NCBI RefSeq assembly: GCF_946222985.1
Contig: NZ_CAMIFY010000002.1
Span: 21,938-85,937, forward strand
Direction of reading: 5' to 3'
DNA length: 64,000 bases
Source: an uncultured Corynebacterium sp.
Lineage (GTDB): Bacteria > Actinomycetota > Actinomycetes > Mycobacteriales > Mycobacteriaceae
Shown piece by piece: positions 17,519 through 57,546 of this stretch. Position numbers and translations under genes: made by a program. The notes under the pieces were generated by a model. The model was not told the origin of the DNA. It was given only the letters and a program-made list of their open reading frames with translations, and made no database searches. Every line of letters begins with the position of its first letter. Positions within the stretch are counted from its first letter, which is position 1.

Positions 17519-17557
17519 TCCTCGTTCTCCGCCGATCGTCGCGCGTTTCCGTCGCAT

Positions 17558-17705
17558 TTCCGGCGCGTATCCATTAAATGTCGAATCCGCATTTCATGCC
17601 GCGCATCGACAATTGCGCCGTAGTGTCGAATGCGTGAGATTAACCAATGTAGCGCACCTGGGCCTGCCCTTCGGCAAACTCGTCGGATACGACGTTTCCG
17701 TGTCC
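17558..17705. promoter_or_regulatory. relatively AT-rich divergent promoter region with short direct repeats
   Basis: gtcgaatccgca / gtcgaatgcg direct repeats, ttaaat, lower GC than flanks; separates hydrolase (-) and C-GNAT gene (+). Confidence 0.35.
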
Positions 17706-27449: not shown

Positions 27450-28253
27450 TCATGCACCCGGTTCGGGTCTTTCGACGGTGATGGAGTCGGATCCGGTGGC
27501 GACGCCGGCCTCGCGGAAGGCGACGAGCACGGCCTCGATGACCTCGCTGCGCGCGGCGACGGTGTCGAGCTGGCGGGCACCCGACCAGAAGCGGACCTCC
27601 ATGTCGACGGTGCCGGTGCCGACGGAGATCAGGTGCGCCTGGGGCGCCGGGGAGGTGTAGACCGTCGGCACGGTGGACGCGGCCTCGACGGCGGTGCGCC
27701 GCGCCAGCGACAAGTCGGTCGCCGCGTCGAGGGCGATGACCACCGACGTGCGGACCTTCTCGTATCCGGTCCGGACCGTGACCACCTCGCTGTGCAGCAC
27801 GGTGTTGGGCAGCACCACCAGGCGCCCGTCGAAGGTGCGGATCGACGTCGAGGTCGATCCGATCGAGGTGACTTCGCCCTTCACGTCCTGCACGCCGATC
27901 TGATCGCCGACGCGGTAACGGTCGCGGGCCAGGATCACCAGGCCGGCGAACATCGAACCGAGCACCGTTTGAAACGCGATGCCCGCGGCGATGGAGATGA
28001 TCGTGATGCCGCCGAGGATGTCGACCGGCCGCACGGACGGAAAGACGACGGTCGCCGCCGCCATGAACGCGATGATGCAGATGATCCACTGGATCACCCG
28101 CGAGAACACGTTCGCGGCGGAGGGGCCGCGATCGCGCCACAGCAGCAGCCGGCGGGCGATCCAGCGCACGGCGAAGGAAATCACGATGCCGGCGATGAAG
28201 ATCTGGCCGGCGAGGATCGCTCCGTCGAGGGTGATGTTGGTGGCGTCGTTCAT
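27450..28253 (-). CDS. mechanosensitive ion channel, MscS family
   Basis: Three TM helices then MscS beta domain (GDQIGVQDVKGEVTSIGSTSTSIRTFDGRLVVLPN). Confidence 0.8.
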   Translation of the reverse strand: MNDATNITLDGAILAGQIFIAGIVISFAVRWIARRLLLWRDRGPSAANVFSRVIQWIICIIAFMAAATVVFPSVRPVDILGGITIISIAAGIAFQTVLGSMFAGLVILARDRYRVGDQIGVQDVKGEVTSIGSTSTSIRTFDGRLVVLPNTVLHSEVVTVRTGYEKVRTSVVIALDAATDLSLARRTAVEAASTVPTVYTSPAPQAHLISVGTGTVDMEVRFWSGARQLDTVAARSEVIEAVLVAFREAGVATGSDSITVERPEPGA

Positions 28254-38792: not shown

Positions 38793-40289
<1,497 letters not shown>

Positions 40290-40344
40290 CGATCGGCGGG
40301 GACGGGCGGCGTCGCACAGCAGCCGTCGGCCGTAGCATGGTGAC

Positions 40345-41127
40345 ATGACAGCTTCGGATGCCCCCGCCACCACCGACGACACCGGAATCGCCGTCCTCGA
40401 CTGCGGGCAATGGCGTCGCGTCCTGTGCGTCGTCGCGCACCCCGACGACACGGAATACGGCATCTCCGCGGCCGTCAGCGCCTGGAGTCGCTCGGGCATC
40501 GACGTGTCCTACCTGCTGCTGACCTCCGGCGAAGCGGGGATGCAACGCGATCCGGCCGAGGTCGGGCCGCTGCGCGCGAAGGAGCAGGAGGCCGCGTGCG
40601 CCCGCGTCGGCGTCGACGCCGACGACCTGGTCATCCTCGACCACCCCGACGGCCACCTCGTCGAGGGGCTCGACCTGCGCCGCGACATCGCCCGGCGCAT
40701 CCGCCAGTTCCGGCCCGACGCCGTGGTGACGTTGACCTTCGAATTCGAAGCACCCCACGGCCTCAACCAGGCCGACCACCGCGTCGCCGGCCGCGCCGCC
40801 ATCGACGCCGCACGGGATGCGGCGAACCGGTGGGTCTTCCGCGAGCTCGCCGAGGACGAGGGCCTCGAGCCGTGGGAGCCCGACGTGTTCCTGGTGGGGC
40901 AGGTGAACAACCCCACCCACGTCGTGCCGGTGGCCGCCGACGACGTCGACGCCGCCGTCGAGTCCCTCGCCTGCCACGAGCAGTACCTCGCCGACCTGCC
41001 GGACCACCCGAAGCCCGCGGATTTCATCCCGCCGATGCTGGCCGACGCCGGCGCACTCGTCGGCGAGCCGCACGGCGTCGCCTTCCGGGTTCACGAGCTC
41101 GGCGGCGTGGCCAAGTCCCGCGACTGA
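40345..41127 (+). CDS. PIG-L family deacetylase (LmbE/MshB-like)
   Basis: AHPDDTE zinc-binding motif near N-terminus, 260 aa. Confidence 0.8.
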   Translation: MTASDAPATTDDTGIAVLDCGQWRRVLCVVAHPDDTEYGISAAVSAWSRSGIDVSYLLLTSGEAGMQRDPAEVGPLRAKEQEAACARVGVDADDLVILDHPDGHLVEGLDLRRDIARRIRQFRPDAVVTLTFEFEAPHGLNQADHRVAGRAAIDAARDAANRWVFRELAEDEGLEPWEPDVFLVGQVNNPTHVVPVAADDVDAAVESLACHEQYLADLPDHPKPADFIPPMLADAGALVGEPHGVAFRVHELGGVAKSRD

Positions 41128-41278
41128 CCCCGGGGCCCGCATCCCCGCTGGGTCGGTTGCACCCGTTCTTTGTCGGCCCCGGGTTATTCGCGTTAAATCA
41201 GTGAGGGATCACGCACGCGCCCGGGTGATCGATGACCGACACACGCAACTACCGACTCGACGTGAGGGGGAGCGCCGG

Positions 41279-41629
41279 ATGGTGGAGCTCGCGGCCCTGG
41301 CGGTCGTCGTCATCCTCGTCCTCAACCTCGTCGTCGCCACGGTCATGACCTGGCGCCGGCATCCCCGCGACGGGTGGTTGCCGGTCATCCTCCTCGGCGG
41401 CACCTCGATGATCGCCGTCGTCGCGGTGGGCACGATGCTGCTGCCCGAAACCGCCCTCAACCGCGATCGGGGGATCGACGTCGCCCTCGTCGTGGCGTTC
41501 ATGGCCGCCGTGGCGGCGGTGGTTCCTGCGGTACTGGTGCGGGCCGCCGCCAAGCAGGATGCTGCGGGCCGGACTCCGGGCTCCGACTCCGACCCCGAGC
41601 CCGCGCAGGACCCGGAGGCCGCGTCGTGA
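41279..41629 (+). CDS. monovalent cation/H+ antiporter subunit F-like (MrpF/MnhF)
   Basis: ~116 aa, three TM helices; immediately precedes mrpG with GTGA overlap. Confidence 0.5.
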   Translation: MVELAALAVVVILVLNLVVATVMTWRRHPRDGWLPVILLGGTSMIAVVAVGTMLLPETALNRDRGIDVALVVAFMAAVAAVVPAVLVRAAAKQDAAGRTPGSDSDPEPAQDPEAAS

Positions 41630-41961
41630 GCTTCCTCCTCGACCTCCTCACGGTCGTGCTCCTGCTGGTTGGCTCGGCGTTTTTCACCGCCGGGACGATC
41701 GGCCTGATCCGGTTCCCCGACATCCGCAGCCGCCTGCATGCGCTGACCAAGGCCGACGGGCTCGGGTTGGGGTTCATCGTGCTGGGCGTCGTCCTGCAGG
41801 CGCCGTCGGCGGCGGTCGGCGCCCTGGCGGTGTTCGCGTGGGTGGCCGCGTTGGCGGCGGCGTCGGCCTCCGCGCGGGTGATCGCGGCGAGGGCCGCGCA
41901 CCGCGAGCCCGGGCCCCGTCGTGATCCGCAGCGGAAGGCGGTGACCGATGTTGATGGCTGA
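41626..41961 (+). CDS. mrpG: monovalent cation/H+ antiporter subunit G (MrpG/MnhG)
   Basis: Signature GTIGLIRFPDIRSRLHALTKADGLG; GTG start overlapping upstream stop. Confidence 0.75.
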   Translation: MSFLLDLLTVVLLLVGSAFFTAGTIGLIRFPDIRSRLHALTKADGLGLGFIVLGVVLQAPSAAVGALAVFAWVAALAAASASARVIAARAAHREPGPRRDPQRKAVTDVDG

Positions 41962-42970
41962 GCCCGCTTTCCGTGAGGTGGACCGCGTCCTCGGCGTCGC
42001 CGACATCGTCGTCGGGGTGGGGCTGCTCGCACTGGCGTTGGGTGCGCTGTTCGCCCGCACGCGCCCGGTGGCCGTGATGCTCTTCCTCTGCACGGGCGCG
42101 CTGATGATCCCCACGTGGCTGCGGCTGGGCACCGTCGACATGGCGCTTGCCGAGGGCGCGTTGGGCACGGGCATCCTCACCGCGCTCCTGCTTGCGGTCA
42201 CCGTCGACCGGAGGTCGCTCGACGACGCCGACGGTGCCACCGGCCACGAGAACGGTTCCGGTGGCGGGGGCACTCGATTGCGGTGGTTGGCCGGGGTATC
42301 GCGGGTCGCCGTGATGGCGACGTCCATCTCCGTCGTCGCAGTGCCGGGTGCGGCGCTGCTGAGCACCATCGACGCCCGCGACCCCGCTTTCACCTGGTCG
42401 GAGCCGATGGCGGCTGCGATGCCGCACTCCGGGGTGGACTACGCCGTCACAGCGGTGCTGTTGAACTTTCGCGCCGTGGATACGCTGCTCGAATCCGCCG
42501 TGCTTCTGTTCGCGGCGATCGCCGCGGCGTCCATCGCCTCCGCCGCCCTCGGCGAGGACGCGGCCCCGCTTGCACCGACCGCGGTGCCCGGCGTCTCGTG
42601 GTTCGGCAACATCCTCGGCCCCATGGCGCTGCTCCTCGGCGGCTGGCTGCTCTACGCGGGCGCGAGTTCCGCGGGCGGCGCGTTCCAGGCCGGGGCCGTG
42701 TGGGCCGGTGGGTTGGTCATGCTCCACGCCGCCGGCGCCGGGTGGCTCATGCGGTCGCGGCGGGCGCTGACCATCGTCGCCGTCTCCGGGGTGGCGGTGT
42801 TCCTCGCCGCCGCGTTCGTCGGCCCGATCACCGGCGACGCATGGCTCGCCCTCGACCCCGCATGGGCCGGGGCGGTCGTCGTCGCCGTGGAAACCGCTCT
42901 GGCCCTCGGCATCGCCGCCGCGCTGGTGCAGTTGTACCTCGTGCTCATCGGGCGGGAGGTGCGCCCATGA
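41948..42970 (+). CDS. MnhB domain protein (DUF4040 + MrpB-like; corresponds to MrpA C-terminal region fused to MrpB)
   Basis: MnhB-like block GVDYAVTAVLLNFRAVDTLLESAVL, multiple TM segments, 340 aa. Confidence 0.6.
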   Translation: MLMAEPAFREVDRVLGVADIVVGVGLLALALGALFARTRPVAVMLFLCTGALMIPTWLRLGTVDMALAEGALGTGILTALLLAVTVDRRSLDDADGATGHENGSGGGGTRLRWLAGVSRVAVMATSISVVAVPGAALLSTIDARDPAFTWSEPMAAAMPHSGVDYAVTAVLLNFRAVDTLLESAVLLFAAIAAASIASAALGEDAAPLAPTAVPGVSWFGNILGPMALLLGGWLLYAGASSAGGAFQAGAVWAGGLVMLHAAGAGWLMRSRRALTIVAVSGVAVFLAAAFVGPITGDAWLALDPAWAGAVVVAVETALALGIAAALVQLYLVLIGREVRP

Positions 42971-43281
42971 TCGGAGACGTCGGGGCCATCCCGGTCATCA
43001 CGTGGTACCTCGTGCTGGGCGCCGTGCTCTTCGCCGCGGGCCTGGGACGGTCGATGACGGCCCGCGACCGGGTGGCGCAGATCATCGGGTTCAACGTCAT
43101 GGGCTTGGGCTCCCTCATCGTTCTCGTCGCCGTCGGAGCCCGCGCGGGAGCACCGGACCCGTCCCTGACGGCGCTGGCAATCACCGGGCTCGTCATCACC
43201 GTGGCGTTCACCGGAGTCGGCGTCGCACTCGTGCGCGCCATCGAAACCGACGACGAGGAGGCCGACGATGAACGCCGGTGA
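42967..43281 (+). CDS. mrpC: cation:proton antiporter subunit C (MrpC, NuoK-like)
   Basis: 104 aa, three TM helices, NuoK/MrpC-like; ATGA overlaps with both neighbours. Confidence 0.7.
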   Translation: MIGDVGAIPVITWYLVLGAVLFAAGLGRSMTARDRVAQIIGFNVMGLGSLIVLVAVGARAGAPDPSLTALAITGLVITVAFTGVGVALVRAIETDDEEADDERR

Positions 43282-44902
43282 GATCGTCCTCGGATTGGTG
43301 ATTTTCCTGCCGCTGCTCGGTGCGCTGGTCAGCGCGGTCGCGCCGACGACGCCCATCCGCTCGCTCGTGCGCATCCCGGATTCGGGCAACGGCTCGCACA
43401 CCGGGTCGGGCAGCGTCGGCCACGGTGCCGTCGCCGGAGTCCGCCGCCCCGACTGGCGGGGACTGTCCGGGGTCTTGTTCGCCATCGCCACCGCCGCCGC
43501 CTCCATCGCCCTGGCCGTCCACGTCGGCGCGGCCGGCGAACCCGTGGAGCTCGCGCCGGGAGGGTGGGGCGCCCCGTTGGGCGTGCGCTGGATCGCAGAC
43601 GGCCTCGGCGTCATGTTCGTGGCGCTGACGGGCGTCGTCGGGTTGGCGGCCTCCATCGTCGCCGCCGTGCTGCCCGGTGCCACCGGAGTCGACGGGCGAC
43701 CCGCCCCGGCCTTCTGGCCGCTGTGGCTGGGTTGTTGGACGGGCCTGAATACCGTCCACGTCTCGGGTGACTTCTTCAACATCTACGTCGGGTTGGAGCT
43801 CGCCGGACTCACCGCCGTCGGGCTGGTGGCCCTGGGCGGCCGCGAAGCCTGGGCCGCGGCATTCCGGTACCTCATCGTCACCGTCGTCGGCTCGATGCTG
43901 TTCCTGCTGGCCGTGGGCCTCATCGCCTCCGACACCGGCACCCTCGACTTCCGCATGGCCGTCGAGATCATCGGCGCCCACGAGACCATGCCCCCCGCCA
44001 TCACCATCGCCGTATTGCTGGGCACGGCGGGCATGGCATTGAAGTTCGCGCTCGCCCCGCTGCACGGGTGGCTCATCCCCGCCCACTCCTCGGCGCCGTC
44101 GGTGGTGTCGCCCCTGCTGTCCGCTTTGGTCATCAAGGCGCCCGTCGTGGTGCTGCTGCGCCTGTGGACCGGCATCGCCGACGATTCCGCCGCACACGCC
44201 GCCGCCTCGTGGATCCTCGGGGCGATGGGCGTCACCGCCCTGCTGTGGGGCTCGATCATGGCCATCCGGCAAACCAGTCTGAAGAAGCTCATCGCGTACT
44301 CCACCGTCGCCCAGGCCGGGTACTGGGTCGTCGCCATGCCCATCATCGGCGACCCGGACGTCGTCGAGCAGGGGCTCACCGGCCCCGACGCCGATCACAC
44401 GGTGCTGTTCTGGGTGCTCACCGGCACGGTGGCGCTGATCGTCGCCCATGGTCTGGCCAAGGCGGCGCTGTTCCTGGTCGCCGGATTGCTCAAGGAGCAT
44501 TACGGCACGGACGACATGGACGAATTGTCCGGCGCGGGCCGGGAGCACCCGATCCTGGCCATGACCGCCGGCCTGTCCGCCATCGCCCTGGCGGGCATGC
44601 CGCCATCACTGGCGTTCGGCGGCAAATGGCAGGTGGCCACCGGCGCGGTGATGGAACGCCAGTGGTGGATCCTCGCGGTCGTGGTCGTCTCCACGCTGCT
44701 CAGCGTCGCCTACCTGCTGCGAATCCTCGCCCCCATGCTCCGCGACACCGGTGAAACCCGCCGCGCTGCCATCCGCCCCACCGGCCCGGCCATCCCGCCG
44801 ATCGCCGCCGGGGCCGCACTTGCCCTGGCCGTCGCGGCCGTGGCGTCCGGATTCGTCGTCGTCCACTTCGACGCCCTGCTTCAGATCGGGGGCCAGGCAT
44901 GA
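43268..44902 (+). CDS. proton-conducting membrane transporter, complex I ND5/MrpA/MrpD family (subunit 1 of 3)
   Basis: Antiporter-like signature ALAPLHGWLIPAHSSAPSVVSPLLSA, 14+ TM. Confidence 0.8.
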   Translation: MNAGEIVLGLVIFLPLLGALVSAVAPTTPIRSLVRIPDSGNGSHTGSGSVGHGAVAGVRRPDWRGLSGVLFAIATAAASIALAVHVGAAGEPVELAPGGWGAPLGVRWIADGLGVMFVALTGVVGLAASIVAAVLPGATGVDGRPAPAFWPLWLGCWTGLNTVHVSGDFFNIYVGLELAGLTAVGLVALGGREAWAAAFRYLIVTVVGSMLFLLAVGLIASDTGTLDFRMAVEIIGAHETMPPAITIAVLLGTAGMALKFALAPLHGWLIPAHSSAPSVVSPLLSALVIKAPVVVLLRLWTGIADDSAAHAAASWILGAMGVTALLWGSIMAIRQTSLKKLIAYSTVAQAGYWVVAMPIIGDPDVVEQGLTGPDADHTVLFWVLTGTVALIVAHGLAKAALFLVAGLLKEHYGTDDMDELSGAGREHPILAMTAGLSAIALAGMPPSLAFGGKWQVATGAVMERQWWILAVVVVSTLLSVAYLLRILAPMLRDTGETRRAAIRPTGPAIPPIAAGAALALAVAAVASGFVVVHFDALLQIGGQA

Positions 44903-46428
44903 TCGACGGCGGACTCGTCGCCCCCTTCCTGGTGCTCCTGTCCTTCGCGGTGGCGCTTCTCATCTTCCCGCTGGCCAACCACCGCACCGTGACGCGTTCG
45001 GCGATCAACGTGACGGCGGCCGTCGTCAAGCTCGGTTTCGTCATCTATCTGATCCCCACCGTCATCGGCGATGGCGTCCACCCCGAATGGTCGATGGGCT
45101 TCCTGCCCGGAATCGACCTGGTGCTGCGCGTCGACCGGTTCGCACTGTTCTTCGCCGGTTTGTCGGCCCTGCTGTGGCTGCTGACCACGCTGTACGCCAT
45201 CGGCTACCTCAAGGGCACGGAGCACCGGAGCCGGTTCTTCGGGTTCTTCAGCCTCTGCGTCACCGCCACCGTCGGCATCTCGTTTTCCGGCAACCTGATC
45301 ACCTTCCTGGTCTTCTACGAACTGCTCACCCTGGCCACCTACCCGCTGGTGGCGCACAAGGGCGACGCGAAATCGCTGGCCGCCGGCCGCGTCTACCTCC
45401 GCTACGCCCTGTCCGGCGGGCTGGCGGTGCTGTGCGGCGTGGTGTGGCTGACCGTGCTGGCCGGGCCCGTCGACTTCTCCGAAGGCGGCGCCGCGGGACT
45501 CGCGGAACTGGTGCCCGAGCACCCGGTCGCGCTGACGGTCATCTTCGCGCTGCTCGTCGGAGGCATGGGGGTCAAGGCGGCGCTGGTGCCGCTGCACGGT
45601 TGGCTGCCCCGCGCCATGGTCGCCCCCGCGCCGGTCAGCGCCCTGCTGCACGCCGTCGCCGTCGTCAAGGCCGGCGTGTTCGGCATTTGCCGCGTCGTCG
45701 ACGACGTCTACGGCATCGAGGTCGCCGAGGAGCTCGGGGTGCTCGACCCGCTGCTGGTCCTGGCGTCGATCACCATCGTTTACGGTTCATGGGTGGCGCT
45801 GCGCCAAACCGACCTGAAGGCGCGGCTGGCGTATTCGACGGTGTCCCAGGTGTCCTACGTCGCGCTGGGCCTGGCCATGGCCGACGTCGTGGCCACCAGC
45901 GGCGGCATCCTCCACCTGGTCCACCAGGGCATCATGAAGATCACCCTGTTCTTCTGCGCCGGTTTGTTCGCCGAGGTGATGGGTCGCAAGGCGATCGCGG
46001 AGCTGCGCGGCATGGGGCATCGGATGCCGTTGACGTCGGTCGCCTTCACCGTGGCGGCGTTCGGCATGATCGGGTTGCCGCCGACGGCCGGGTTCATCTC
46101 CAAGTGGCAGCTGGGGCAGGGCGCACTGCTGTCCGGCAACACGTGGGTGCTGGGCGTGCTCGTCGCGTCGACGTTGCTCAATGCCGCCTACTTCCTGCCC
46201 ATCGTCTACGACCTGTGGTTCCGCGAGGACGATCGTGACGGCGACGACGATGGGTCGGGCCCCCGCAACGAGGCCCGGCGCGGTTCCGGTGACGTCCGTG
46301 CCCCGCGCCTGATGCTCGTGCCCGCACTGGTCACGACCACCGCGGTCCTCGCGCTCGGCGTCTTCGCCGCGGCGCCGTACTCGCCGCTGCAGGTCGCCGA
46401 GGTCATTTCCGAGGGGGTCTTCCGATGA
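44899..46428 (+). CDS. proton-conducting membrane transporter, MrpD/NuoM-N family (subunit 2 of 3)
   Basis: ALVPLHGWLPRAMVAPAPVSALLHAV signature; 4-bp overlap with neighbours. Confidence 0.8.
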   Translation: MIDGGLVAPFLVLLSFAVALLIFPLANHRTVTRSAINVTAAVVKLGFVIYLIPTVIGDGVHPEWSMGFLPGIDLVLRVDRFALFFAGLSALLWLLTTLYAIGYLKGTEHRSRFFGFFSLCVTATVGISFSGNLITFLVFYELLTLATYPLVAHKGDAKSLAAGRVYLRYALSGGLAVLCGVVWLTVLAGPVDFSEGGAAGLAELVPEHPVALTVIFALLVGGMGVKAALVPLHGWLPRAMVAPAPVSALLHAVAVVKAGVFGICRVVDDVYGIEVAEELGVLDPLLVLASITIVYGSWVALRQTDLKARLAYSTVSQVSYVALGLAMADVVATSGGILHLVHQGIMKITLFFCAGLFAEVMGRKAIAELRGMGHRMPLTSVAFTVAAFGMIGLPPTAGFISKWQLGQGALLSGNTWVLGVLVASTLLNAAYFLPIVYDLWFREDDRDGDDDGSGPRNEARRGSGDVRAPRLMLVPALVTTTAVLALGVFAAAPYSPLQVAEVISEGVFR

Positions 46429-48236
46429 TGTCCTGGGCCCCCATGTACGCCGCGCCGCTGGCGGTGCTGTTCGGGTTGCTGTTCTCCGGCTTGACGACGG
46501 TCCGCGCCCGACCCCGCTCCCGCGAGGTCCTGGCGGTGCTCGCGCCCCTGACCACCCTGCCCGCCCTCGTCCCCGCACTGTCGCCGCCCGAGCAAGGGGC
46601 GCACGTCGAGTGGCTGCTTCTGGGCACCCGCCTGAACATGGACGGGCTGGCCAGGCCATTGGTCGTCGTGGCGGTCATCCTCTACTTCACGGCCCTGGCG
46701 GCCATCGGCTGGCGTCGCAAAGCAGACGGGGACCGCAGGGCGGGAGACGACCGCCGGGCCGTGCTGGCCGGCTTCCTGCTCGCTGCGTACCTGGGCAACG
46801 TCACCGTCTACGTCGCCGCCGACACCGCCACGTTCTACCTCGCCTTCGCCGTGATGAGCTTCGCCGCCTTCGGCGCGATCATCCACGATCTGTCGAAGAA
46901 GGCGCGGTTCGCGTCGAAGGTGTACATCGTCATGTCGGTGGTCAGCGAAGTGTCGGTGCTGTCGGCGATGCTCATCATCACCGCCGCCTCCGGGCCGCTG
47001 ATCGCCGACGCGCCGGCCGCCGTGGCAGAGCACCCGTTGTCCGGGTTGATCATCGCCCTGCTCATCGTCGGCTTCGGCGTCAAGGCCGGCACGGTGCCCC
47101 TGCACGTGTGGCTGCCGTTGGCGCACCCCGCCGCCCCACCTGCAGCGTCGGCCGTACTGTCCGGCGCGATGGTCAAGGCCGGCGCCCTGGGCTGGCTGCG
47201 GTTCCTGCCGCTGGGGGAGGGGCCCGACCGCACCTGGGGCATGGTCCTGCTTGCGTTGGCGCTCTTCGGTGCCTTCGCGGCCCTCGTCGTCGGCGCGGTG
47301 CAGAAGGACCCCAAGGTCGTCCTCGCGTACTCCACGATCTCGCAGCTGGGTTTCATGGGCGCGGTCATCGCCGTGGGCATGCTGGAACCGGCGCTGGCCG
47401 CCGCGTGCGCCTGGGCGACCGTCGTCTACGCCGTCCACCACGGCATCGCCAAGGGGGCGCTGTTCCTCGGCGTGCAAATGTGGCGGGAACTGCACCGCGG
47501 CCCGTGGAAGTGGCCGGTCATCGCCGGTATGGCAGTGTCCGCCGCCGCGGTGGCGGGCGCTCCGTTCACCTCCGGCGCGCTCGGCAAATACGTGTCCAAG
47601 AAGGCCGTCGAGGACCTCGGCGTCGACTGGTTGCCCCTCGATTCGCTGCTGCCGCTCATCGCCACCGGCTCGACGATCCTGCTCATCCGCGTCGCCATGC
47701 TGCTCCACCGGGAAGACACCGTCGAGGAACCGGGCGGCACGCCGGTCACCGCCGCATGGCTGGCGCTGGCACCGCTCGGGGTGGCGGTGCCGTGGCTCAT
47801 CGCCCGAAAATGGGTGCCGCTCGACCCACCGTCGCCGGAACCGGCGGTGCTGTGGGACTCCGTGTGGCCCATCGGGTTGGGCGTGCTCATCGCCGTCGGC
47901 TCGTGGTGGGTGATGACGCGCAAGCGATGGTTCGGCGAACGACTCGACTCCGTGTTCGCCGACCCGATTTTTCCGCCGGGCGATGTGCTCGGCCCGGAAC
48001 TGGTGGCCGCCCGGTCCGTGGCCCGCACCGTCCGCCGCGGTGACGACCGCGTTCGGGCGGCCGGCGGTGCGGTCGGCGATGCGGTCGCCGCTGGTGCGCG
48101 GTCGGGGGCGCGGGCCACGGTGCGGGCGGTCGGCACCGCCGACTCGAAGCTGGCCGTCTCCGCCGTCTCGGGGTCGGTGCTGCTCGTACTCGTCGTCGTG
48201 TTCATGGCGATCGTCGTAATCACCGGAGGTGCCTGA
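46425..48236 (+). CDS. proton-conducting membrane transporter, MrpD/MrpA-like family (subunit 3 of 3)
   Basis: GTVPLHVWLPLAHPAAPPAASAVLSG signature; 603 aa with C-terminal extension. Confidence 0.75.
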   Translation: MMSWAPMYAAPLAVLFGLLFSGLTTVRARPRSREVLAVLAPLTTLPALVPALSPPEQGAHVEWLLLGTRLNMDGLARPLVVVAVILYFTALAAIGWRRKADGDRRAGDDRRAVLAGFLLAAYLGNVTVYVAADTATFYLAFAVMSFAAFGAIIHDLSKKARFASKVYIVMSVVSEVSVLSAMLIITAASGPLIADAPAAVAEHPLSGLIIALLIVGFGVKAGTVPLHVWLPLAHPAAPPAASAVLSGAMVKAGALGWLRFLPLGEGPDRTWGMVLLALALFGAFAALVVGAVQKDPKVVLAYSTISQLGFMGAVIAVGMLEPALAAACAWATVVYAVHHGIAKGALFLGVQMWRELHRGPWKWPVIAGMAVSAAAVAGAPFTSGALGKYVSKKAVEDLGVDWLPLDSLLPLIATGSTILLIRVAMLLHREDTVEEPGGTPVTAAWLALAPLGVAVPWLIARKWVPLDPPSPEPAVLWDSVWPIGLGVLIAVGSWWVMTRKRWFGERLDSVFADPIFPPGDVLGPELVAARSVARTVRRGDDRVRAAGGAVGDAVAAGARSGARATVRAVGTADSKLAVSAVSGSVLLVLVVVFMAIVVITGGA

Positions 48237-48807
48237 CGTGGCCGAAATCGGATCCAACGCCGCCCACGCCGTCGGTGCGAGCGGCGGCACCAATTCCATA
48301 GGCAAGGGAACCTACGCCGTCGCGGCGATCCTGCGGGGCCTCGTCTTCGCCGTGACCTGGGCGCTGCTGACCCGCGCCGACGCGTCCTACCTCGGCTACG
48401 GGTTGGTCCTCGTTCCGTCGGCGACCGCGCTGAGCCTCGCCGTGTCCCGGCCGCGCATGGCCCCCGCACCGCGCACGTGGCTGCCGCGGGCGGGACGGTT
48501 CCTCCTGCTGCTGGGCTGGTTCGCCGGGCAGGCGTTCAGCGGCGGCGTGGATGTCGCCACGCGTGCCCTGCGTGGGCCCGCCGACATCGACCCGTACGTC
48601 GCCACGTTGCCCGCACGCCTGCGGCCGGGCCCAGCACGCGAGCTGGCCGAGGCGATGATCAACCTCATGCCGGGCACGGTCGTCGAGGCGAGCGACGAGG
48701 ATTCCGTCGATTTGCACGTTCTCGGTTCCGATCTCGACGCCGCCGCCCAGTGGGCCGAGTTGGAGAATCGCGTCGCCGCGGCGGCGGGCATCACGCTATC
48801 GTCGTAG
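48229..48807 (+). CDS. mrpE: Na+/H+ antiporter subunit E-like (MrpE/MnhE)
   Basis: MnhE pattern: two TM then PGTVVEASDEDSVDLHVL...; overlaps upstream gene. Confidence 0.65.
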   Translation: MPDVAEIGSNAAHAVGASGGTNSIGKGTYAVAAILRGLVFAVTWALLTRADASYLGYGLVLVPSATALSLAVSRPRMAPAPRTWLPRAGRFLLLLGWFAGQAFSGGVDVATRALRGPADIDPYVATLPARLRPGPARELAEAMINLMPGTVVEASDEDSVDLHVLGSDLDAAAQWAELENRVAAAAGITLSS

Positions 48808-48868
48808 GCGGATTCTCAGACGCCGTTCAGCATCGTCGATCCCGTCCCGGAAGGAGCCCCCGCCCAAC

Positions 48869-49666
48869 GTGGAAAACCTGTGGTTCGCCTTCGGCCTGAC
48901 CCTGGCCGCGGGTTTGGCGACGGGCATCGGCGGCCTGATTTCGGTCAGCCGACGCAACCCCGGCCCGAGGTTCATGGCCGGGGCGCTGGGCTTTTCCGCC
49001 GGCGTCATGCTCTACGTGTCGTTCCTCGAGATCCTGCCCAAGGGCGTTGAGGAACTGTCCGAGGCGTGGGGCACCGCCGGCGGATCGTGGGCGGCGATCG
49101 GGGCCTTCTTCGGCGGCATCGCGGTCATCGCGATCATCGACCGCCTGGTCCCGGAGCCGATCAACCCGCATGAGCCGGGCACCATCGACGACCCGGAGGT
49201 CTCCGCGCGGCGCCGGCGGATGATGAAGATGGGCACGATGACGGCGGTGGCCATCGCCATCCACAACTTCCCCGAGGGCTTCGCGACGTTCATCGCGGCG
49301 CTGGAGGACCCGCAGCTGGCCCTTCCGGTCGCCATGGCCATCGCCATCCACAACGTGCCCGAGGGAATCGCGGTGGCGGTGCCGATCCACCAGGGAACCG
49401 GGAGCCGTCGCAAAGCACTGTCGTGGTCGTTCTTGTCCGGCCTGGCCGAACCGGCCGGCGCCCTGATCGGTTTCCTGGTGCTGATGCCGTTGCTCGGCCC
49501 GGTGACCATGGGCATCGCCTTCGCGATGGTCGCCGGCGTGATGGTGTTCATCTCCCTCGACGAGCTGCTGCCGGCCGCGGAGTCGACGGGGCGCCATCAC
49601 ACCGCGATCTACGGCCTCATCGCCGGCATGGCGGTGATGGCCGTGAGCCTGCTGCTGTTCCAGTGA
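48869..49666 (+). CDS. zupT: ZIP family zinc transporter ZupT
   Basis: ZIP signature HNFPEGFA / HNVPEGIA in TM4/TM5; GTG start with GGAAGGAG RBS. Confidence 0.85.
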   Translation: MENLWFAFGLTLAAGLATGIGGLISVSRRNPGPRFMAGALGFSAGVMLYVSFLEILPKGVEELSEAWGTAGGSWAAIGAFFGGIAVIAIIDRLVPEPINPHEPGTIDDPEVSARRRRMMKMGTMTAVAIAIHNFPEGFATFIAALEDPQLALPVAMAIAIHNVPEGIAVAVPIHQGTGSRRKALSWSFLSGLAEPAGALIGFLVLMPLLGPVTMGIAFAMVAGVMVFISLDELLPAAESTGRHHTAIYGLIAGMAVMAVSLLLFQ

Positions 49667-49706
49667 TGGGCTACCGTGACGGAATGAACCGGGGGACGGG
49701 AGGACG

Positions 49707-50147
49707 ATGGTGAGCGCGGGAGCATTGTTCAGGCGAGTTCGGCTTGACGACGCCGCGGCGTGTCCCTGCGGCGGCGTCGCACGCGGGGGCGGGGCGCCGA
49801 CCTACGGGCGGTGTTGCGCGCCGTTGCATCGCAGGGAACGCCTGGCGGAGACGGCCGTGGAGCTCATGGCCGCCCGCTACAGCGCCTACGCCGCGCACGA
49901 GGCGGACTACATCTGGATGACGTGGCATCCGCGGCGCCGCCCCGAGGTGGTCACCTTCGACCCGGACGTGGAGTGGCGCGGATTGGAGATCGTCGACGTC
50001 GTCGACGGCGCCGAGGGCGACCGCGAGGGGATCGTGGAGTTCCGGGCGCGCTACGCCGACGCCGACGGGCCCGGCGAACTGTGGGAGCGCTCGACGTTCA
50101 TCCTGCGCTCGAAGCGCTGGATGTACGTCGACGGGGAGTTCCGCTAG
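49707..50147 (+). CDS. ychJ: YchJ family protein (SEC-C motif, UPF0225)
   Basis: CPCG ... YGRCC SEC-C-like metal motif, NTF2-like C-terminus. Confidence 0.7.
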   Translation: MVSAGALFRRVRLDDAAACPCGGVARGGGAPTYGRCCAPLHRRERLAETAVELMAARYSAYAAHEADYIWMTWHPRRRPEVVTFDPDVEWRGLEIVDVVDGAEGDREGIVEFRARYADADGPGELWERSTFILRSKRWMYVDGEFR

Positions 50148-51253
50148 CTCTCGCGGGCCTTGCGCGCCGCAGATTTGGCGTCGCGGTCGACCAGCAGGCC
50201 ACCCGGGGTGGCGGAGCCGGCCGAGGCGCGGATGCGCGACGACCGGTTGGAGTCGTCGCCGTGACCGTCGTCCTTGGCGGTGCCGTGGGAATCGTCGTGG
50301 TCCCCGCCGTGGCCCTTGCCGTGACCGAAGGGCAGGAAGTGCATGACGGCGACGAGGATCGCGCCCCAGATCGCGCCGATGACCAGCGAGCACAACGTGT
50401 TGACGCACCAGGCGAGGAAGCCCGCCGGCACGAGGGTTTCGAGGTGGTGGACGAACTCGTAGGGCGCGTGCCAGCCCAGCTCGTCGACGCCGACGAGGAT
50501 GATGTGGCCGCCGACCCACAACATGGCGAAGGTGCCGATGATCCCGATGATCGACAACACCACCGGCATCGCCTTGACCAGGCCCGAACCGAACTTGCCG
50601 GCGGCGCCGTCGCTGCGCTTGGCCATCGCCAGGCCGATGTCATCCATCTTCACCAGCAGGCCGACGACGCCGTAGACCAGCAGCGTGATCGCCAGGGCGA
50701 CGACGATGAGGATGATCGCGCGCCGGACGAACGGCTCGTTGGCCACCTCGTTGAGCGAGATGACCATGATCTCCGCCGACAGGATCAGGTCCGTGAAGAT
50801 CGCCGACTTCACCAGCGAATCCTCGTCCGCCGGCTCGCGGTCGAGGGCCTCGGCCTCGCGGGCGGCCTTCTCCTCCGGCGTCTCCTTCGACAGCTTGTGG
50901 GAGATCTTCTCCCACACCTTCTCCATGCCCTCGAAGCACAGGTAGGAGCCGCCGAGCATGAGGATCGGGGTGAGCACCCACGGGAGGAACTGCGACAGCA
51001 GCAGGGCGATCGGCAGGATGATCACCAGCTTGTTGACCAGCGACCCCTTGGCGATGCGCCAGATCATCGGCAGCTCGCGCTTGGGCTCGATGCCCGTGAC
51101 GTACTGCGGCGTCACCGCGGCGTCGTCGATGACGACGCCGGCGGCCTTCGCCCCGGCCTTGCCGGTGGCCGCGGCGATGTCGTCGGCCGATGCCGCGGCC
51201 GCGCGCGCGAGGGCGGCGACGTCGTCGAGCAGTGCCGCGAGACCGCCGCTCAT
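50144..51253 (-). CDS. DUF808 family membrane protein (YedI-like)
   Basis: Architecture and conserved N-terminal LAALLDDVAALA block of DUF808; His/Gly/Asp-rich C-terminal tail. Confidence 0.6.
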   Translation of the reverse strand: MSGGLAALLDDVAALARAAAASADDIAAATGKAGAKAAGVVIDDAAVTPQYVTGIEPKRELPMIWRIAKGSLVNKLVIILPIALLLSQFLPWVLTPILMLGGSYLCFEGMEKVWEKISHKLSKETPEEKAAREAEALDREPADEDSLVKSAIFTDLILSAEIMVISLNEVANEPFVRRAIILIVVALAITLLVYGVVGLLVKMDDIGLAMAKRSDGAAGKFGSGLVKAMPVVLSIIGIIGTFAMLWVGGHIILVGVDELGWHAPYEFVHHLETLVPAGFLAWCVNTLCSLVIGAIWGAILVAVMHFLPFGHGKGHGGDHDDSHGTAKDDGHGDDSNRSSRIRASAGSATPGGLLVDRDAKSAARKARES

Positions 51254-55481: not shown

Positions 55482-55659
55482 GCGATAACCCTCCACTGCC
55501 GCCTCGTCTCCCTTCGAAGATGTTCGCTCCACCTCCGGATCCTCGCGCCCGGAACATGCGGACCTTATCCCACCGGAAGACCGTGGGAATACGATTTCCC
55601 GGCGCACCCCGCCCGCTAAAGTCGTCATGCAACCATCACTTTCAGGGAAGGCTCTCCGG

Positions 55660-57546
55660 ATGAATCCGCAGGATTCCGATACCGCGACACCACCGACGTC
55701 CGCATCCGCGCCGTCCGCCTCTACGCCCGACACGGCGACCGGCGCGACGCCCGACACGACCGCCAAGAAAGAGAAGAAGTTCGGCTGGCTGAAAACCGAC
55801 CCGCTGATCTTCTTCGCTTCGGTCGGTTTCATCCTTCTGTTCGTCGTCGCCACCGTCGTGCTCGGCGAGACCGCACGTGAGGCGTATTCCACGGCCTCCG
55901 AGTGGGTCACCGGCAACCTCGGCTGGCTGTTCATCGGCGGCGTCTCGGCCGCGTTGATCTACCTGATCGGCGTGTTCGTCTCTCGCTACGGCAATCTCAA
56001 GCTCGGCGACGACGACGAGGAACCGGAGTACTCGATCACCGAGTGGTTCGGCATGCTCTTCGCCGGCGGCACCGGTTCGATGCTGATGTTCTGGGGCGTC
56101 GCCGAGCCGATGAACCACGCGATCAACTCGCCACGCAACCTCGAGCCGATGAGCATCGAGGCCCGCCAGGAGGCGATGGCCTTCACCATCTACCACCTGG
56201 GCGTCCACATGTGGGTCATCATGACGCTGCCGGGACTGGCCCTGGGCTACTTCATCTACAAGCGCAAGCTGCCGCCGCGGGTGTCGTCGATCTTCGCACC
56301 GCTGCTGGGCGAGAAGATCTACAAGTGGCCCGGCAAGCTCATCGACGCCGTCGCGATCATCGGCACGGTCTTCGGCATCGCCGTGTCGGTGGGCATGGGC
56401 GCGATGCAGATCAACTCGGGGGCCTCGCGCGTGCTGGGGTTGCCGGAGAACTCCATGATCCAGTTGCTGCTCATCGCGGCGATCATCATCGTCGCGTCGA
56501 TCTCCGTCGCCCGCGGCCTGGACAAGGGCATCAAGCTGCTGTCCAACGTCAACATCTGGATGGCCGTCGTCCTGATGGCGTTCGTCCTGCTGGCGGGCCC
56601 GACGCTGACGTTGCTCAAGCAGGTCGTCGACACCGTGGGCATCTACGCACACGAGCTGCCGCGGATCATGTTCTGGACCGATTCCTACGACCTCAACCCC
56701 GAGTGGTCGCAGGGCACGTGGACCGTCTTCTACTGGGCGTGGACCATCTGCTGGTCGCCGTTCGTCGGCATGTTCCTGGCCCGCATCTCGCGGGGCCGCA
56801 CGGTGCGCCAGTTCATCGCCGGCGTCATCGCCCTGCCGACGATCTTCGTGATCGTCTGGTTCTCCGTCTTCGGCCGGGCCGGTTTCGAGTTGGAGGCCTC
56901 GCAGCCGGGCGTGCTGTCCGAGCCGGTCGTCGAGGGCGGCGACCCGTCGCCGGCGTTGTTCATCCTGCTCGAGCAGTACCCGTTGGCGACGCTGATGAGC
57001 GTGTTCGCGTTGCTGATCATCATGATCTTCTTCGTCACCTCCATCGACTCGGCGGCGATGGTCACCGACATGATGTCGACCGGCGAGGAGAACAAGGCGC
57101 CGACGACGTACCGCATCCTGTGGGGCGTCATGATCGGCGCGGTCGCCGGCGCGATGCTCGTCATCACCGGCGAGGGCGGGATCCTGGCGTTGCAGGAGGT
57201 CGTGATCCTCATCGGCGTGCCGTTCTTCTTCATGCACTTCGTCATGATGTGGTCGCTGGTCAAGGGAATGAGCGACGACCACATGGCCGTCCACCGGCCG
57301 AAGACGCGCCGGTGGAAGAAGACCGACACTCCGGAGAAGCTCGCCGCCCACGAGGCGGCCCCGGCCCCGGGTTACGACGAGGACGGCAACGAGCTGCCGC
57401 CCATCGAGTACACCTACGACGAGGACGGCACCCTGGTCATCGCCGGTGACGTGCGCATCGAAGGCGACCTGCGCCGCGACGAGGGGGACCCCGACGAGGA
57501 CACCCCGCCGACCGTTCCCGCGGATCGCCTGGAGCCCCCGAAGTAG
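55660..57546 (+). CDS. BCCT family betaine/carnitine/choline transporter
   Basis: BCCT conserved Trp-rich segment (FYWAWTICWSPFVGMFLARISRGRT), 12 TM, acidic C-terminal tail. Confidence 0.85.
   Translation: MNPQDSDTATPPTSASAPSASTPDTATGATPDTTAKKEKKFGWLKTDPLIFFASVGFILLFVVATVVLGETAREAYSTASEWVTGNLGWLFIGGVSAALIYLIGVFVSRYGNLKLGDDDEEPEYSITEWFGMLFAGGTGSMLMFWGVAEPMNHAINSPRNLEPMSIEARQEAMAFTIYHLGVHMWVIMTLPGLALGYFIYKRKLPPRVSSIFAPLLGEKIYKWPGKLIDAVAIIGTVFGIAVSVGMGAMQINSGASRVLGLPENSMIQLLLIAAIIIVASISVARGLDKGIKLLSNVNIWMAVVLMAFVLLAGPTLTLLKQVVDTVGIYAHELPRIMFWTDSYDLNPEWSQGTWTVFYWAWTICWSPFVGMFLARISRGRTVRQFIAGVIALPTIFVIVWFSVFGRAGFELEASQPGVLSEPVVEGGDPSPALFILLEQYPLATLMSVFALLIIMIFFVTSIDSAAMVTDMMSTGEENKAPTTYRILWGVMIGAVAGAMLVITGEGGILALQEVVILIGVPFFFMHFVMMWSLVKGMSDDHMAVHRPKTRRWKKTDTPEKLAAHEAAPAPGYDEDGNELPPIEYTYDEDGTLVIAGDVRIEGDLRRDEGDPDEDTPPTVPADRLEPPK

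What the first reader, a model, noticed from the sequence alone, without database searches (positions are those of the whole stretch)
41279..48807. Non-canonical eight-gene Mrp-like cluster: F-G-(DUF4040/MnhB)-C-D-D-D-E with three ND5-type subunits and no classical MrpA
All seven Mrp subunit types are recognisable, but the order is unlike the canonical mrpABCDEFG. MrpF and MrpG come first, a 340-aa MnhB-domain protein stands in for the MrpA C-terminus plus MrpB, and three consecutive antiporter-like subunits (544, 509, 603 aa; each with a VPLHxWLPxAHxxAPxPxSAxL-type motif) precede MrpE. Nearly every junction is a 4-bp ATGA/GTGA overlap, which suggests tight stoichiometric co-translation. Three complex-I-arm-like subunits plus a NuoK-like MrpC recall the respiratory complex I membrane arm and cyanobacterial multi-D Mrp/NDH modules more than a standard actinobacterial Na+/H+ antiporter. 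I do not recognise this arrangement as a characterised system. A ZIP zinc importer (zupT) follows directly.
Basis: partly seen in the sequence, partly recalled or inferred. Interest (0 to 1): 0.6.

Follow-up and report, generated by a model that had tools for sequence, protein, structure and literature searches.

The report
Three-pump group 3 Mrp antiporter operon
This is a real eight-gene operon for a multi-subunit sodium/proton-type antiporter (Mrp "group 3") with three proton-channel subunits instead of two; the layout is already noted in genome papers and is common in salt- and alkali-tolerant bacteria, but nobody has tested its function.

Summary
Window 41279-48807 (+) carries eight tightly packed genes: mrpF-like, mrpG, an MbhD+MnhB fusion, mrpC, three Proton_antipo_M subunits (D1, D2, D3) and mrpE. 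zupT follows.

The claim of novelty does not hold. The 2017 Mrp review lists the same order, mrpFGBCDDAE, as a group 3 Mrp in Microbacterium sp. TS-1. MrpEFGBCD1D2D3 or similar clusters are annotated in Nitrospira, Verruconatronum and a Solemya symbiont.

I found the identical order in Corynebacterium, Dietzia, Hoyosella, Nesterenkonia, Kocuria and Nocardioides. A variant with mrpE first occurs in many other phyla.

D1, D2 and D3 are old paralogues (28-33% identity), each with its own orthologues across phyla. D1 is MrpD-like and D2 is MrpA-core-like. D3 is divergent but carries a lateral amphipathic helix and a C-terminal anchor helix, as in NuoL/MrpA.

MrpA is therefore split, not missing. 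D3 supplies its pump and lateral helix. The fusion protein supplies its C-terminal domain plus MrpB.

The D3 tail is about 30 residues longer in three-pump clusters than in two-pump relatives, which fits a linear D3-D2-D1 arm.

No redox partner lies nearby. The most likely function is a stand-alone electrogenic cation/H+ antiporter. This is a new member of a known kind, not yet characterised by experiment.

The parts
41279..41629 (+). Diverged mrpF (116 aa, three hydrophobic segments, acidic C-terminal tail).
   Evidence: No Pfam MrpF hit. The gene in the same position in other phyla hits PF04066 above its cut-off. hhalign of the actinobacterial set against the true MrpF set gives probability 97.7%, E 2.5e-12.
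41626..41961 (+). mrpG (111 aa). GTG start in a 4-bp GTGA overlap with mrpF.
   Evidence: PF03334, E 4.4e-19. NCBIfam subunit G families match below their cut-offs. R29, D32, R36, H38, K42 and D44 are conserved across 33 orthologues.
41948..42970 (+). Fusion of an MbhD/MbhE-like part (MrpA C-terminal domain) with MnhB (MrpB), 340 aa.
   Evidence: PF13244 at residues 25-84 and PF04039 at 220-326. PDB sequence hits to MbsE and MbhD. The AF2 model (pLDDT 76) has one significant Foldseek match, Dietzia fused MrpA' 7d3u_A, over 355 columns. Invariant residues: D19, D64, E69, R175, D178, E182, G243-G244, F246-Q247, E315.
42967..43281 (+). mrpC, NuoK-like (104 aa). ATGA overlap with the B fusion.
   Evidence: PF00420, E 2.4e-11. 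Weak NCBIfam MrpC, NuoK and FpoK hits.
43268..44902 (+). D1: MrpD/NuoN-type antiporter-like subunit (544 aa), with a lineage-specific Gly/Ser/His-rich insert of about 30 aa in the TM1-TM2 loop.
   Evidence: PF00361, E 1e-45. Best PDB hits are MrpD 7qru_D, MbhH, MbsH and NuoN. In the NJ tree it is sister to canonical MrpD. Conserved E177, K259, K290, H394/K398 and K453. Insert shown.
44899..46428 (+). D2: the best-conserved pump (509 aa). Its core resembles MrpA-N/MbhH, and it has no lateral helix. This is the subunit missing from two-pump relatives.
   Evidence: PF00361, E 1.6e-59, plus a sub-threshold PF00662 hit. NF005561 scores 463 bits, below its cut-off. PDB hits: MbhH, MbsH, NdhF, MrpA. 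It is 53-57% identical across phyla. Conserved E141, K226, K257, H339/H342/K347 and K402.
46425..48236 (+). D3: divergent pump (603 aa) carrying an amphipathic lateral helix (about residues 521-575) and a C-terminal anchor helix (581-600). It is the equivalent of the MrpA N-terminal module.
   Evidence: PF00361, E 1.9e-29. The best NCBIfam hit is HyfB, below its cut-off. AF2 model pLDDT 83, with helix 522-558 and helix 581-600. Foldseek top hits, aligned full length, are NuoL, NdhF, MrpA, ND5 and HycC. Hydrophobic moment 0.5-0.7 and net charge +5 in the lateral helix. Conserved E175, K220, K251, H339, K343 and K388.
48229..48807 (+). mrpE (192 aa from the GTG at 48229; 189 aa from the GTG at 48238, as called in the public record).
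   Evidence: PF01899, E 4.7e-15. The public gene call is 189 aa. D105, R109, R134, H160 and E176 are conserved.

Best explanation
The locus encodes a stand-alone group 3 Mrp (CPA3-family) monovalent cation/proton antiporter in an uncultured Corynebacterium.

MrpA is split into two proteins. D3 provides the distal pump, the cytoplasmic lateral helix and the anchor helix. The 340-aa fusion provides the MrpA C-terminal (NuoJ/MbhD-E-like) domain joined to MrpB. An extra pump, D2, is inserted between D3 and the MrpD-like D1.

Proposed assembly in the membrane: D3 - D2 - D1 - [MrpC + MbhD/E part of B] - [MnhB part of B + MrpF + MrpG] - MrpE. The D3 lateral helix runs over D2 and D1.

Proposed working: protons enter through three Lys/Glu-lined pumps, driven by the membrane potential. 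This is coupled electrostatically to Na+ (or K+/Li+) extrusion through the small-subunit module. One more pump than canonical Mrp (proposed 2 H+ per Na+) would make exchange more electrogenic, which suits cytoplasmic acidification and Na+ export at high pH and high salt.

Shown here: subunit identities, the split of MrpA, conservation of the charged residues, the lateral helix and its length difference, the conserved gene order, and the absence of redox partners.

Inferred: the order of assembly, the stoichiometry, the ion specificity and the physiological role.
For: - Subunit assignments.
- Each of the three pumps keeps the full TM5 Glu, TM7 Lys, TM8 Lys, TM11 His/Lys and TM12 Lys axis in 34-37 orthologues from several phyla. 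This axis is the hallmark of active antiporter-like subunits (Yu 2021; Steiner & Sazanov 2020).
- D3 has a NuoL/MrpA-type lateral helix and anchor helix.
- The D3 tail after the conserved PxGD motif is 85 aa (median, n=86) in three-pump actinobacterial proteins. It is 55 aa (n=108) in the Hyphomicrobiales relatives; the four clusters of that lineage I examined (L027, L036, L085, L086) have no D2. The 30-residue difference is about 45 A of helix, roughly one subunit width. This fits the published rule that lateral-helix length follows the number of pumps spanned.
- The same eight-gene order occurs in seven actinobacterial genomes from at least four orders. An E-first version occurs in about 30 loci of Proteobacteria, Verrucomicrobia, Dehalococcoidia, Planctomycetes and others.
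- No hydrogenase or NuoH/B/D-like gene is present anywhere in the 64-kb window.
- No flanking gene family recurs in more than 4 of about 35 loci. Recurring neighbours are other cation transporters: canonical Mrp and P-type ATPases.
- Many host organisms are halo- or alkaliphiles: Nesterenkonia, Dietzia, Halomonas, Thioalkalivibrio, Desulfonatronum, Wenzhouxiangella and soda-lake MAGs.
- The related stand-alone group 3 Mrp of P. furiosus has been tied to Na+-coupled pH homeostasis.
Against: - There are no experimental data for this subtype. I found no paper that tests it.
- The lateral-helix part of the D3 model has low confidence (pLDDT about 45-55).
- The tail-length contrast rests on essentially one two-pump lineage, the Alphaproteobacteria, so it is one or two independent comparisons.
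- One three-pump locus (L010) has a 495-aa D3 ORF without the tail.
- No multimer model was possible, so the order D3-D2-D1 is inferred.
- All three pumps have Lys on TM8. None has the TM8 His of MrpA/NuoL, so D3 is not a plain MrpA N-module.
- The MrpF here is strongly diverged, and the conserved Asp of the RGPxxxDR motif does not align cleanly.
- The apparent enrichment in haloalkaliphiles was seen by eye and not tested statistically.
Confidence: 0.7

Rival explanations
1. The cluster is the membrane arm of a redox-driven, complex-I-like or hydrogenase-like pump. The electron-input module would be encoded elsewhere in the genome.
For: It has three pumps, a NuoK-like subunit and a long lateral helix, which copies the distal membrane arm of complex I. 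D3's best family hits are HyfB, HycC and MbsH', subunits that sit next to redox modules.
Against: No NuoH, NuoA, NuoB, NuoD or MbhJKLMN-like gene is present in the 64-kb window. None lies next to the cluster in any of about 40 loci from many phyla. In known MBH, MBS and Hyf systems the redox genes are contiguous with the Mrp-like genes. The complete Na+-module subunits E, F, G and B are present, as in free-standing Mrp.
Confidence: 0.05
2. It has the same architecture but a different job. It could be a K+/H+ (Pha-like) or Ca2+/H+ exchanger, or it could run mainly in reverse, using a Na+ gradient to expel protons as proposed for the P. furiosus stand-alone Mrp.
For: Mrp family members with K+ or Ca2+ specificity exist (review). 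The P. furiosus group 3 Mrp was proposed to import Na+ and export H+. The diverged MrpF and the all-Lys TM8 set differ from characterised Na+/H+ Mrp systems.
Against: Acidic residues of the small-subunit module are invariant, as in Na+-transporting Mrp. The hosts are mostly aerobic halo- or alkali-tolerant bacteria, where Na+ extrusion with H+ uptake is the expected need. There is no direct evidence either way.
Confidence: 0.15
3. The eight products do not form one complex. D2 and/or D3 would be accessory or alternative subunits that swap into a two-pump Mrp, possibly with the canonical Mrp encoded next door in some genomes.
For: In Dietzia, Anammoxibacter and Alcanivorax a canonical Mrp cluster lies directly upstream. 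Two-pump relatives without D2 exist.
Against: The translationally coupled junctions and the strict co-occurrence and order of D1-D2-D3 across phyla argue for one assembly. The window organism has no canonical Mrp within 64 kb. The D3 tail is longer exactly where D2 is present.
Confidence: 0.07

Closest known systems
Group 3 Mrp cluster 'mrpFGBCDDAE' of Microbacterium sp. TS-1 (MTS1_02374-02382; Ito, Morino & Krulwich 2017, PMC5703873)
   Same: It has the same gene order letter for letter: F, G, B, C, two D, an 'A'-labelled third large subunit, then E. The host is also an actinobacterium.
   Different: I took the comparison from the review's text only and did not align the TS-1 sequences. The function of that cluster is stated to be unknown.
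MrpEFGBCD1D2D3-type clusters annotated in Verruconatronum alginivorum (PMC13274419) and Ca. Nitrospira alkalitolerans (PMC7784846); MrpEFGBBCDD in the Solemya velum symbiont (PMC4287430)
   Same: They have the same subunit set, including three large subunits after mrpC (two in the Solemya symbiont). I found orthologous D1/D2/D3 clusters in about 30 non-actinobacterial loci.
   Different: mrpE is first instead of last, and B is often split into two genes. These are genome annotations only, with no biochemistry.
Stand-alone group 3 Mrp of Pyrococcus furiosus (mrpEFGBB'CD; Haja et al. 2021, PMC8415708)
   Same: There is no mrpA gene. MbhD/E-type and MnhB-type B proteins replace the MrpA C-terminal domain and MrpB. 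There is no redox module. It is the only stand-alone group 3 Mrp in the papers I read that has genetic data, linking it to pH and Na+.
   Different: It has one pump only and no subunit with a lateral helix. The host is an archaeal anaerobe.
Canonical group 1/2 Mrp (B. pseudofirmus 7QRU, A. flavithermus 6Z16, Dietzia 7D3U)
   Same: All subunit functions are present. D1 is closest to MrpD. The B fusion superposes on the C-terminal part of Dietzia MrpA'. The charged axis is conserved.
   Different: Canonical Mrp has two pumps, not three, and MrpA is one polypeptide with a TM8 His. Gene order is ABCDEFG. No chain in the PDB is a close relative; the best hit is 151 bits to MbhH.
Membrane arm of respiratory complex I (NuoL/M/N/K/J)
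   Same: It has three antiporter-like subunits in a row, a NuoK-like subunit, a NuoJ-like domain, and a long lateral helix with a C-terminal anchor on the distal subunit.
   Different: NuoH, NuoA and the Q/N modules are absent, while the Na+-module subunits E, F, G and B are present. The middle pump keeps the TM12 Lys (NuoM has Glu) and the distal pump keeps the TM8 Lys (NuoL has His).

Membership tests
Mrp / CPA3 multi-subunit cation:proton antiporter | All subunit functions A-G are encoded in one contiguous operon. | tested here: met
   G, C, E and three PF00361 subunits are found by Pfam. F is supported by profile-profile comparison. MrpA-C plus MrpB functions lie in the fusion protein. MrpA-N functions (pump, lateral helix, TM16) lie in D3.
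Mrp / CPA3 multi-subunit cation:proton antiporter | Antiporter-like subunits keep the charged axis: TM5 Glu, TM7 Lys, TM8 Lys/His, TM12 Lys. | tested here: met
   D1 has E177, K259, K290, K453. D2 has E141, K226, K257, K402. D3 has E175, K220, K251, K388. Each is at least 94% conserved in 34-37 orthologues.
Mrp / CPA3 multi-subunit cation:proton antiporter | Conserved acidic residues in the small-subunit (Na+) module: MrpA-C E687/E780, MrpB D121, MrpF D38 in B. pseudofirmus. | tested here: inconclusive
   D64, E69, D178, E182 and E315 of the fusion are invariant, and the 'FRxxDTLxE' motif is present. I did not map them residue by residue onto 7QRU. The Asp of the MrpF motif does not align cleanly.
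Mrp / CPA3 multi-subunit cation:proton antiporter | Measured cation/H+ antiport activity. | not testable with these tools
   This needs expression in E. coli KNabc and vesicle assays.
Group 1/2 (classical) Mrp | A single MrpA polypeptide of about 800-1000 aa (pump, lateral helix and MrpB-like C-terminal domain), with gene order A(B)CDEFG. | tested here: not met
   There is no such ORF. The largest subunit is 603 aa and ends at TM16. The order is F-G-B-C-D-D-D-E.
Group 3 Mrp (Ito 2017; Haja 2021) | No mrpA gene, one or more mrpD-type genes, irregular gene order, and all other subunits present. | tested here: met
   The order equals the 'mrpFGBCDDAE' quoted for Microbacterium sp. TS-1.
Group 3 Mrp, three-pump subtype (D1-D2-D3) | One-to-one orthology of each large subunit with the D1, D2 and D3 of clusters in other phyla. 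| tested here: met
   Best-hit assignment in about 35 loci. The NJ tree has three separate clades (no bootstrap).
Respiratory complex I / NDH-1 | NuoH and NuoA membrane subunits, and a Q-module (NuoB/C/D/I) in the same locus. | tested here: not met
   No such Pfam family appears among the window's genes or in the called genes of related loci.
Respiratory complex I / NDH-1 | TM12 Glu in the middle pump (NuoM) and TM8 His in the distal, helix-bearing pump (NuoL). | tested here: not met
   D2 has K402 and D3 has K251 at these positions. Reference residues are from Steiner & Sazanov.
MBH / MBS / Hyf energy-converting hydrogenase-type complexes | A contiguous NiFe-hydrogenase-like module (MbhJKLMN, HyfG-I and similar). 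| tested here: not met
   It is absent from the window and from all related loci examined.

The most novel reading that the evidence does not exclude
The three-pump group 3 Mrp may be a free-living counterpart of the whole distal membrane arm of complex I. In this reading it has a lateral helix that lengthened when the middle pump (D2) was inserted, and a higher H+ per Na+ ratio (about 3:1) than canonical Mrp. That would make it a specialised high-pH, low-pmf antiporter and a tractable redox-free model for how three pumps are coupled in series.
Probability: 0.3. Interest if true: 0.6.

Novelty: new member of a known kind. Interest (0 to 1): 0.33.

Why it matters
As a finding it is mostly ordinary. 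The gene order is already catalogued as group 3 Mrp and is common in Actinomycetota and many other phyla.

Its remaining value is as a pointer. This widespread three-pump Mrp subtype has no solved structure and no transport data.

Canonical Mrp has two pumps and complex I has three. A redox-free three-pump Mrp could therefore help test how antiporter-like subunits are coupled in series, and whether adding a pump raises the H+/Na+ ratio.

The observation made here that the D3 lateral-helix tail is about 30 residues longer when D2 is present gives a simple, testable prediction about the architecture.

Tried and rejected
- An Rfam scan of 40000-50500 for a Na+/Li+ or other riboswitch found only a spurious sub-threshold miRNA hit.
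- The promoter and terminator scan gave nothing above chance.
- A search for a conserved neighbour or redox partner found no flanking family in more than 4 of about 35 loci.
- zupT adjacency is limited to the closest relative, so I rejected it as part of the system.
- I tried to read Cheng et al. 2016 (Halomonas sp. Y2 Ha-Mrp) to see whether a homologous cluster has been characterised. The paper is not held, and a follow-up search was unproductive.
I recovered actinobacterial context through the look-up of encoding contigs instead.
- Simple tandem duplication of mrpD is rejected.
- I considered a correlation between overall D3 length and pump number, but it is noisy (D3 ranges from 495 to 620 aa). 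Only the tail length after the PxGD motif separates the two groups cleanly.
- Literature searches for MrpD2/MrpD3 and 'three antiporter-like subunits' found no study of this subtype.

Full report
**What is in the sequence**

Window 41279-48807 (+ strand, about 70% G+C) holds eight closely packed ORFs with coding-type GC3 of 0.87-0.92. Family scans give the following:
- 41626-41961: MrpG (PF03334, E 4e-19).
- 41948-42970: a 340-aa protein with an MbhD/DUF4040 domain (residues 25-84) and an MnhB domain (220-326).
- 42967-43281: an MrpC/NuoK-like protein (PF00420).
- 43268-44902, 44899-46428 and 46425-48236: three PF00361 antiporter-like subunits, called here D1 (544 aa), D2 (509 aa) and D3 (603 aa).
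- 48229/48238-48807: MrpE (PF01899).

zupT follows after a 61-bp gap (NF003243, 365 bits against a cut-off of 252).

The first gene (41279-41629) hits no MrpF model. However, the gene at the same position in related clusters of other phyla matches PF04066 above its threshold. A profile of the actinobacterial proteins matches a profile of those MrpF proteins with 97.7% probability, E 2.5e-12. It is therefore a diverged MrpF.

Four of the seven junctions are 4-bp overlaps. Two are 14-bp overlaps. D3/E is an 8-bp overlap or a 1-bp gap.

**Where it comes from**

The window matches an ENA metagenome contig exactly. Its B protein is 100% identical to an NCBI protein from 'uncultured Corynebacterium sp.'. 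The closest genome, Corynebacterium sp. NPDC060344, is syntenic from the IMPDH-like gene through zupT and beyond.

**The three large subunits**

They share only 28-33% identity with one another. In about 35 loci from many phyla, each has its own best-hit orthologue in the same position. A neighbour-joining tree resolves three separate clades (no bootstrap).

- D1 is sister to canonical MrpD. Its best PDB hits are MrpD, MbhH, MbsH and NuoN.
- D2 lies near the canonical MrpA N-terminal core. Its best hits are MbhH, MbsH, NdhF and MrpA. It is the most conserved subunit, at 53-57% identity between phyla.
- D3 is the most divergent. Its best hits are HyfB, MbhH, Nad4, MbsH' and HycC.

No NCBIfam model reaches its curated cut-off for any of the three.

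All three keep the TM5 Glu, TM7 Lys, TM8 Lys, TM11 His/Lys and TM12 Lys axis in at least 94% of orthologues. This is the published signature of proton-conducting antiporter-like subunits. They are therefore ancient, functional paralogues, not recent tandem copies of mrpD. They are also not uniformly 'ND5-type'.

**MrpA is split, not absent**

An AlphaFold2 model of D3 (pLDDT 83 overall) shows the 14-15-helix core. After the core come a long helix at 522-558, a short helix at 566-575 and a final hydrophobic helix at 581-600. The tail has low confidence, as expected for a helix that packs on neighbouring subunits.

Its best full-length structural matches are the subunits that carry a lateral helix: NuoL, NdhF, MrpA, ND5 and HycC, with MbsH' further down the list. 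Residues 521-565 have a high helical hydrophobic moment (0.5-0.7) and a net charge of +5. This fits an amphipathic helix on the cytoplasmic face.

In three Chromatiaceae genomes the D3 ORF continues beyond the last helix. Pfam scans of two of them (L015, L017) show that the extension ends in a peptidoglycan-binding domain. That agrees with a periplasmic C-terminus.

The 340-aa fusion has sequence hits to MbhD and MbsE. Its model has a single significant Foldseek match, the fused MrpA' of Dietzia (7d3u_A), over its whole length.

According to the Mrp structure papers, MbhD plus MbhE correspond to the MrpA C-terminal domain, and MbhF corresponds to MrpB. So D3 is the MrpA N-module, and the fusion is MrpA-C plus MrpB.

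**The arrangement is already known**

The 2017 Mrp review lists a third cluster in Microbacterium sp. TS-1 with the order 'mrpFGBCDDAE' and classes it as group 3. Haja et al. define group 3 as lacking mrpA and having one or more mrpD genes.

- Daebeler et al. noted two extra NuoM/NuoL-like genes after mrpD in a group 3 Mrp of Ca. Nitrospira alkalitolerans.
- A 2026 paper annotates 'Mnh/MrpEFGBCD1D2D3' in a soda-lake verrucomicrobium.
- A 2014 genome paper lists 'MrpEFGBBCDD'.

I found the identical F-G-B-C-D1-D2-D3-E order in Corynebacterium, Dietzia, Hoyosella, Nesterenkonia, Kocuria (with B and D1 split) and Nocardioides. I also found it in a Dehalococcoidia MAG, Desulfonatronum and an Opitutia MAG.

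The E-first version occurs in Halomonas, Nitrotoga, Anammoxibacter, Rubrivivax, Thioalkalivibrio, Marinobacter, Verrucomicrobia, Desulfobacterales and others.

I found no paper that tests the function of this subtype. No solved structure is closer than about 150 bits.

**A two-pump sister form and the lateral-helix length**

Hyphomicrobiales genomes (Bosea, Chelatococcus, Ancylobacter) carry E-F-G-B-C-D1-D3 with no D2.

The D3 tail, measured from a conserved P-x-G-D motif to the C-terminus, has these medians:
- 55 aa in the Hyphomicrobiales D3 set (n=108).
- 85 aa in the three-pump actinobacterial set (n=86).
- 70-89 aa in three-pump loci of other phyla.

Thirty more helical residues amount to about 45 A, roughly the width of one pump. 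Yu et al. state that lateral-helix length follows the number of pumps it spans. The difference therefore supports a linear D3-D2-D1 arm with D3 at the distal end.

Two caveats apply. The two-pump set is one lineage, and one three-pump locus (L010) has a short D3 ORF.

**No redox partner**

None of the genes I scanned across the 64-kb window belongs to a hydrogenase, NuoH, NuoA or Q-module family. Flanks differ between genomes, and no family recurs in more than 4 of about 35 loci.

The recurring neighbours are other cation transporters. Canonical Mrp lies directly upstream in Dietzia, Anammoxibacter and Alcanivorax, and P-type cation ATPases lie nearby in three loci. No riboswitch or notable promoter or terminator signal was found.

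**Most likely function**

It is most likely a stand-alone, pmf-driven, electrogenic cation/H+ antiporter. Three proton pumps in series would be clamped by the D3 lateral helix and coupled to the Na+-module formed by MrpC, the fusion protein, MrpF, MrpG and MrpE.

Canonical Mrp is proposed to exchange 2 H+ per Na+. A third pump could raise that ratio. This would suit the many halo- and alkaliphilic hosts.

The assembly order, stoichiometry, ion specificity and role are inferences.

**Verdict**

The arrangement, however, is a catalogued group 3 Mrp type that is widespread and routinely annotated. It is a new member of a known kind with moderate residual interest, because the three-pump subtype remains uncharacterised by experiment.

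Noticed in passing
L015:11239-13746, L016:10132-13674, L017:10975-13569: In three Chromatiaceae genomes (Thiohalocapsa, Thiorhodococcus and a MAG) the D3 orthologue ORF runs 250-300 aa past the anchor helix. Pfam scans of L015 and L017 show that the extension ends in a PF01471 peptidoglycan-binding domain (E 1e-15). An Mrp pump tethered to the cell wall would be unusual. I have not excluded a missed stop codon or a gene fusion artefact.
   Followed up: partly
L003:1-11794 (Dietzia kunjamensis); also L007 and L012: A canonical group 2 Mrp (A'CDEFG) and mgtE lie directly upstream of the group 3 cluster in Dietzia. Canonical MrpA/C/D genes also sit directly upstream in an Anammoxibacter MAG and an Alcanivorax MAG. 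The two Mrp types therefore co-occur side by side in three phyla.
   Followed up: partly
L085:5102-10632 (Bosea sp. 124), L086:5136-10632 (Ancylobacter terrae), L027, L036: Hyphomicrobiales carry a two-pump version, E-F-G-B-C-D1-D3, with a D3 of about 543 aa and a tail about 30 aa shorter. It looks like a split-MrpA equivalent of canonical Mrp.
   Followed up: yes
window 43355-43455 (D1 residues about 30-62): D1 of the window has a Gly/Ser/His-rich insert of about 30 residues in the TM1-TM2 loop. The insert is absent from all orthologues examined, including the closest Corynebacterium relative.
   Followed up: partly
L006:1868-4597, L009:11678-14410, L022:11809-14556: A type II P-type cation ATPase of about 910 aa lies next to the three-pump Mrp cluster in Nitrotoga, Rubrivivax and a verrucomicrobial MAG.
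   Followed up: partly
L088:2675-10333 (Kocuria marina): The same cluster is present, but B is split into separate MbhD (184 aa) and MnhB (139 aa) genes, and D1 is called as two pieces (269 + 285 aa). The D1 split could be a frameshift or pseudogenisation, or an assembly error.
   Followed up: no
window 55627-57546, 27450-28253, 5015-6658: The window also encodes a BCCT betaine/choline transporter, an MscS-type channel and an SNF-family Na+ symporter. This fits an osmotically challenged, Na+-cycling lifestyle.
   Followed up: no
window 17316-19442: A 708-aa ORF combines a Condensation-like domain (PF00668, E 2e-8) with a C-terminal GNAT acetyltransferase domain. I did not examine this unusual pairing further.
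   Followed up: no
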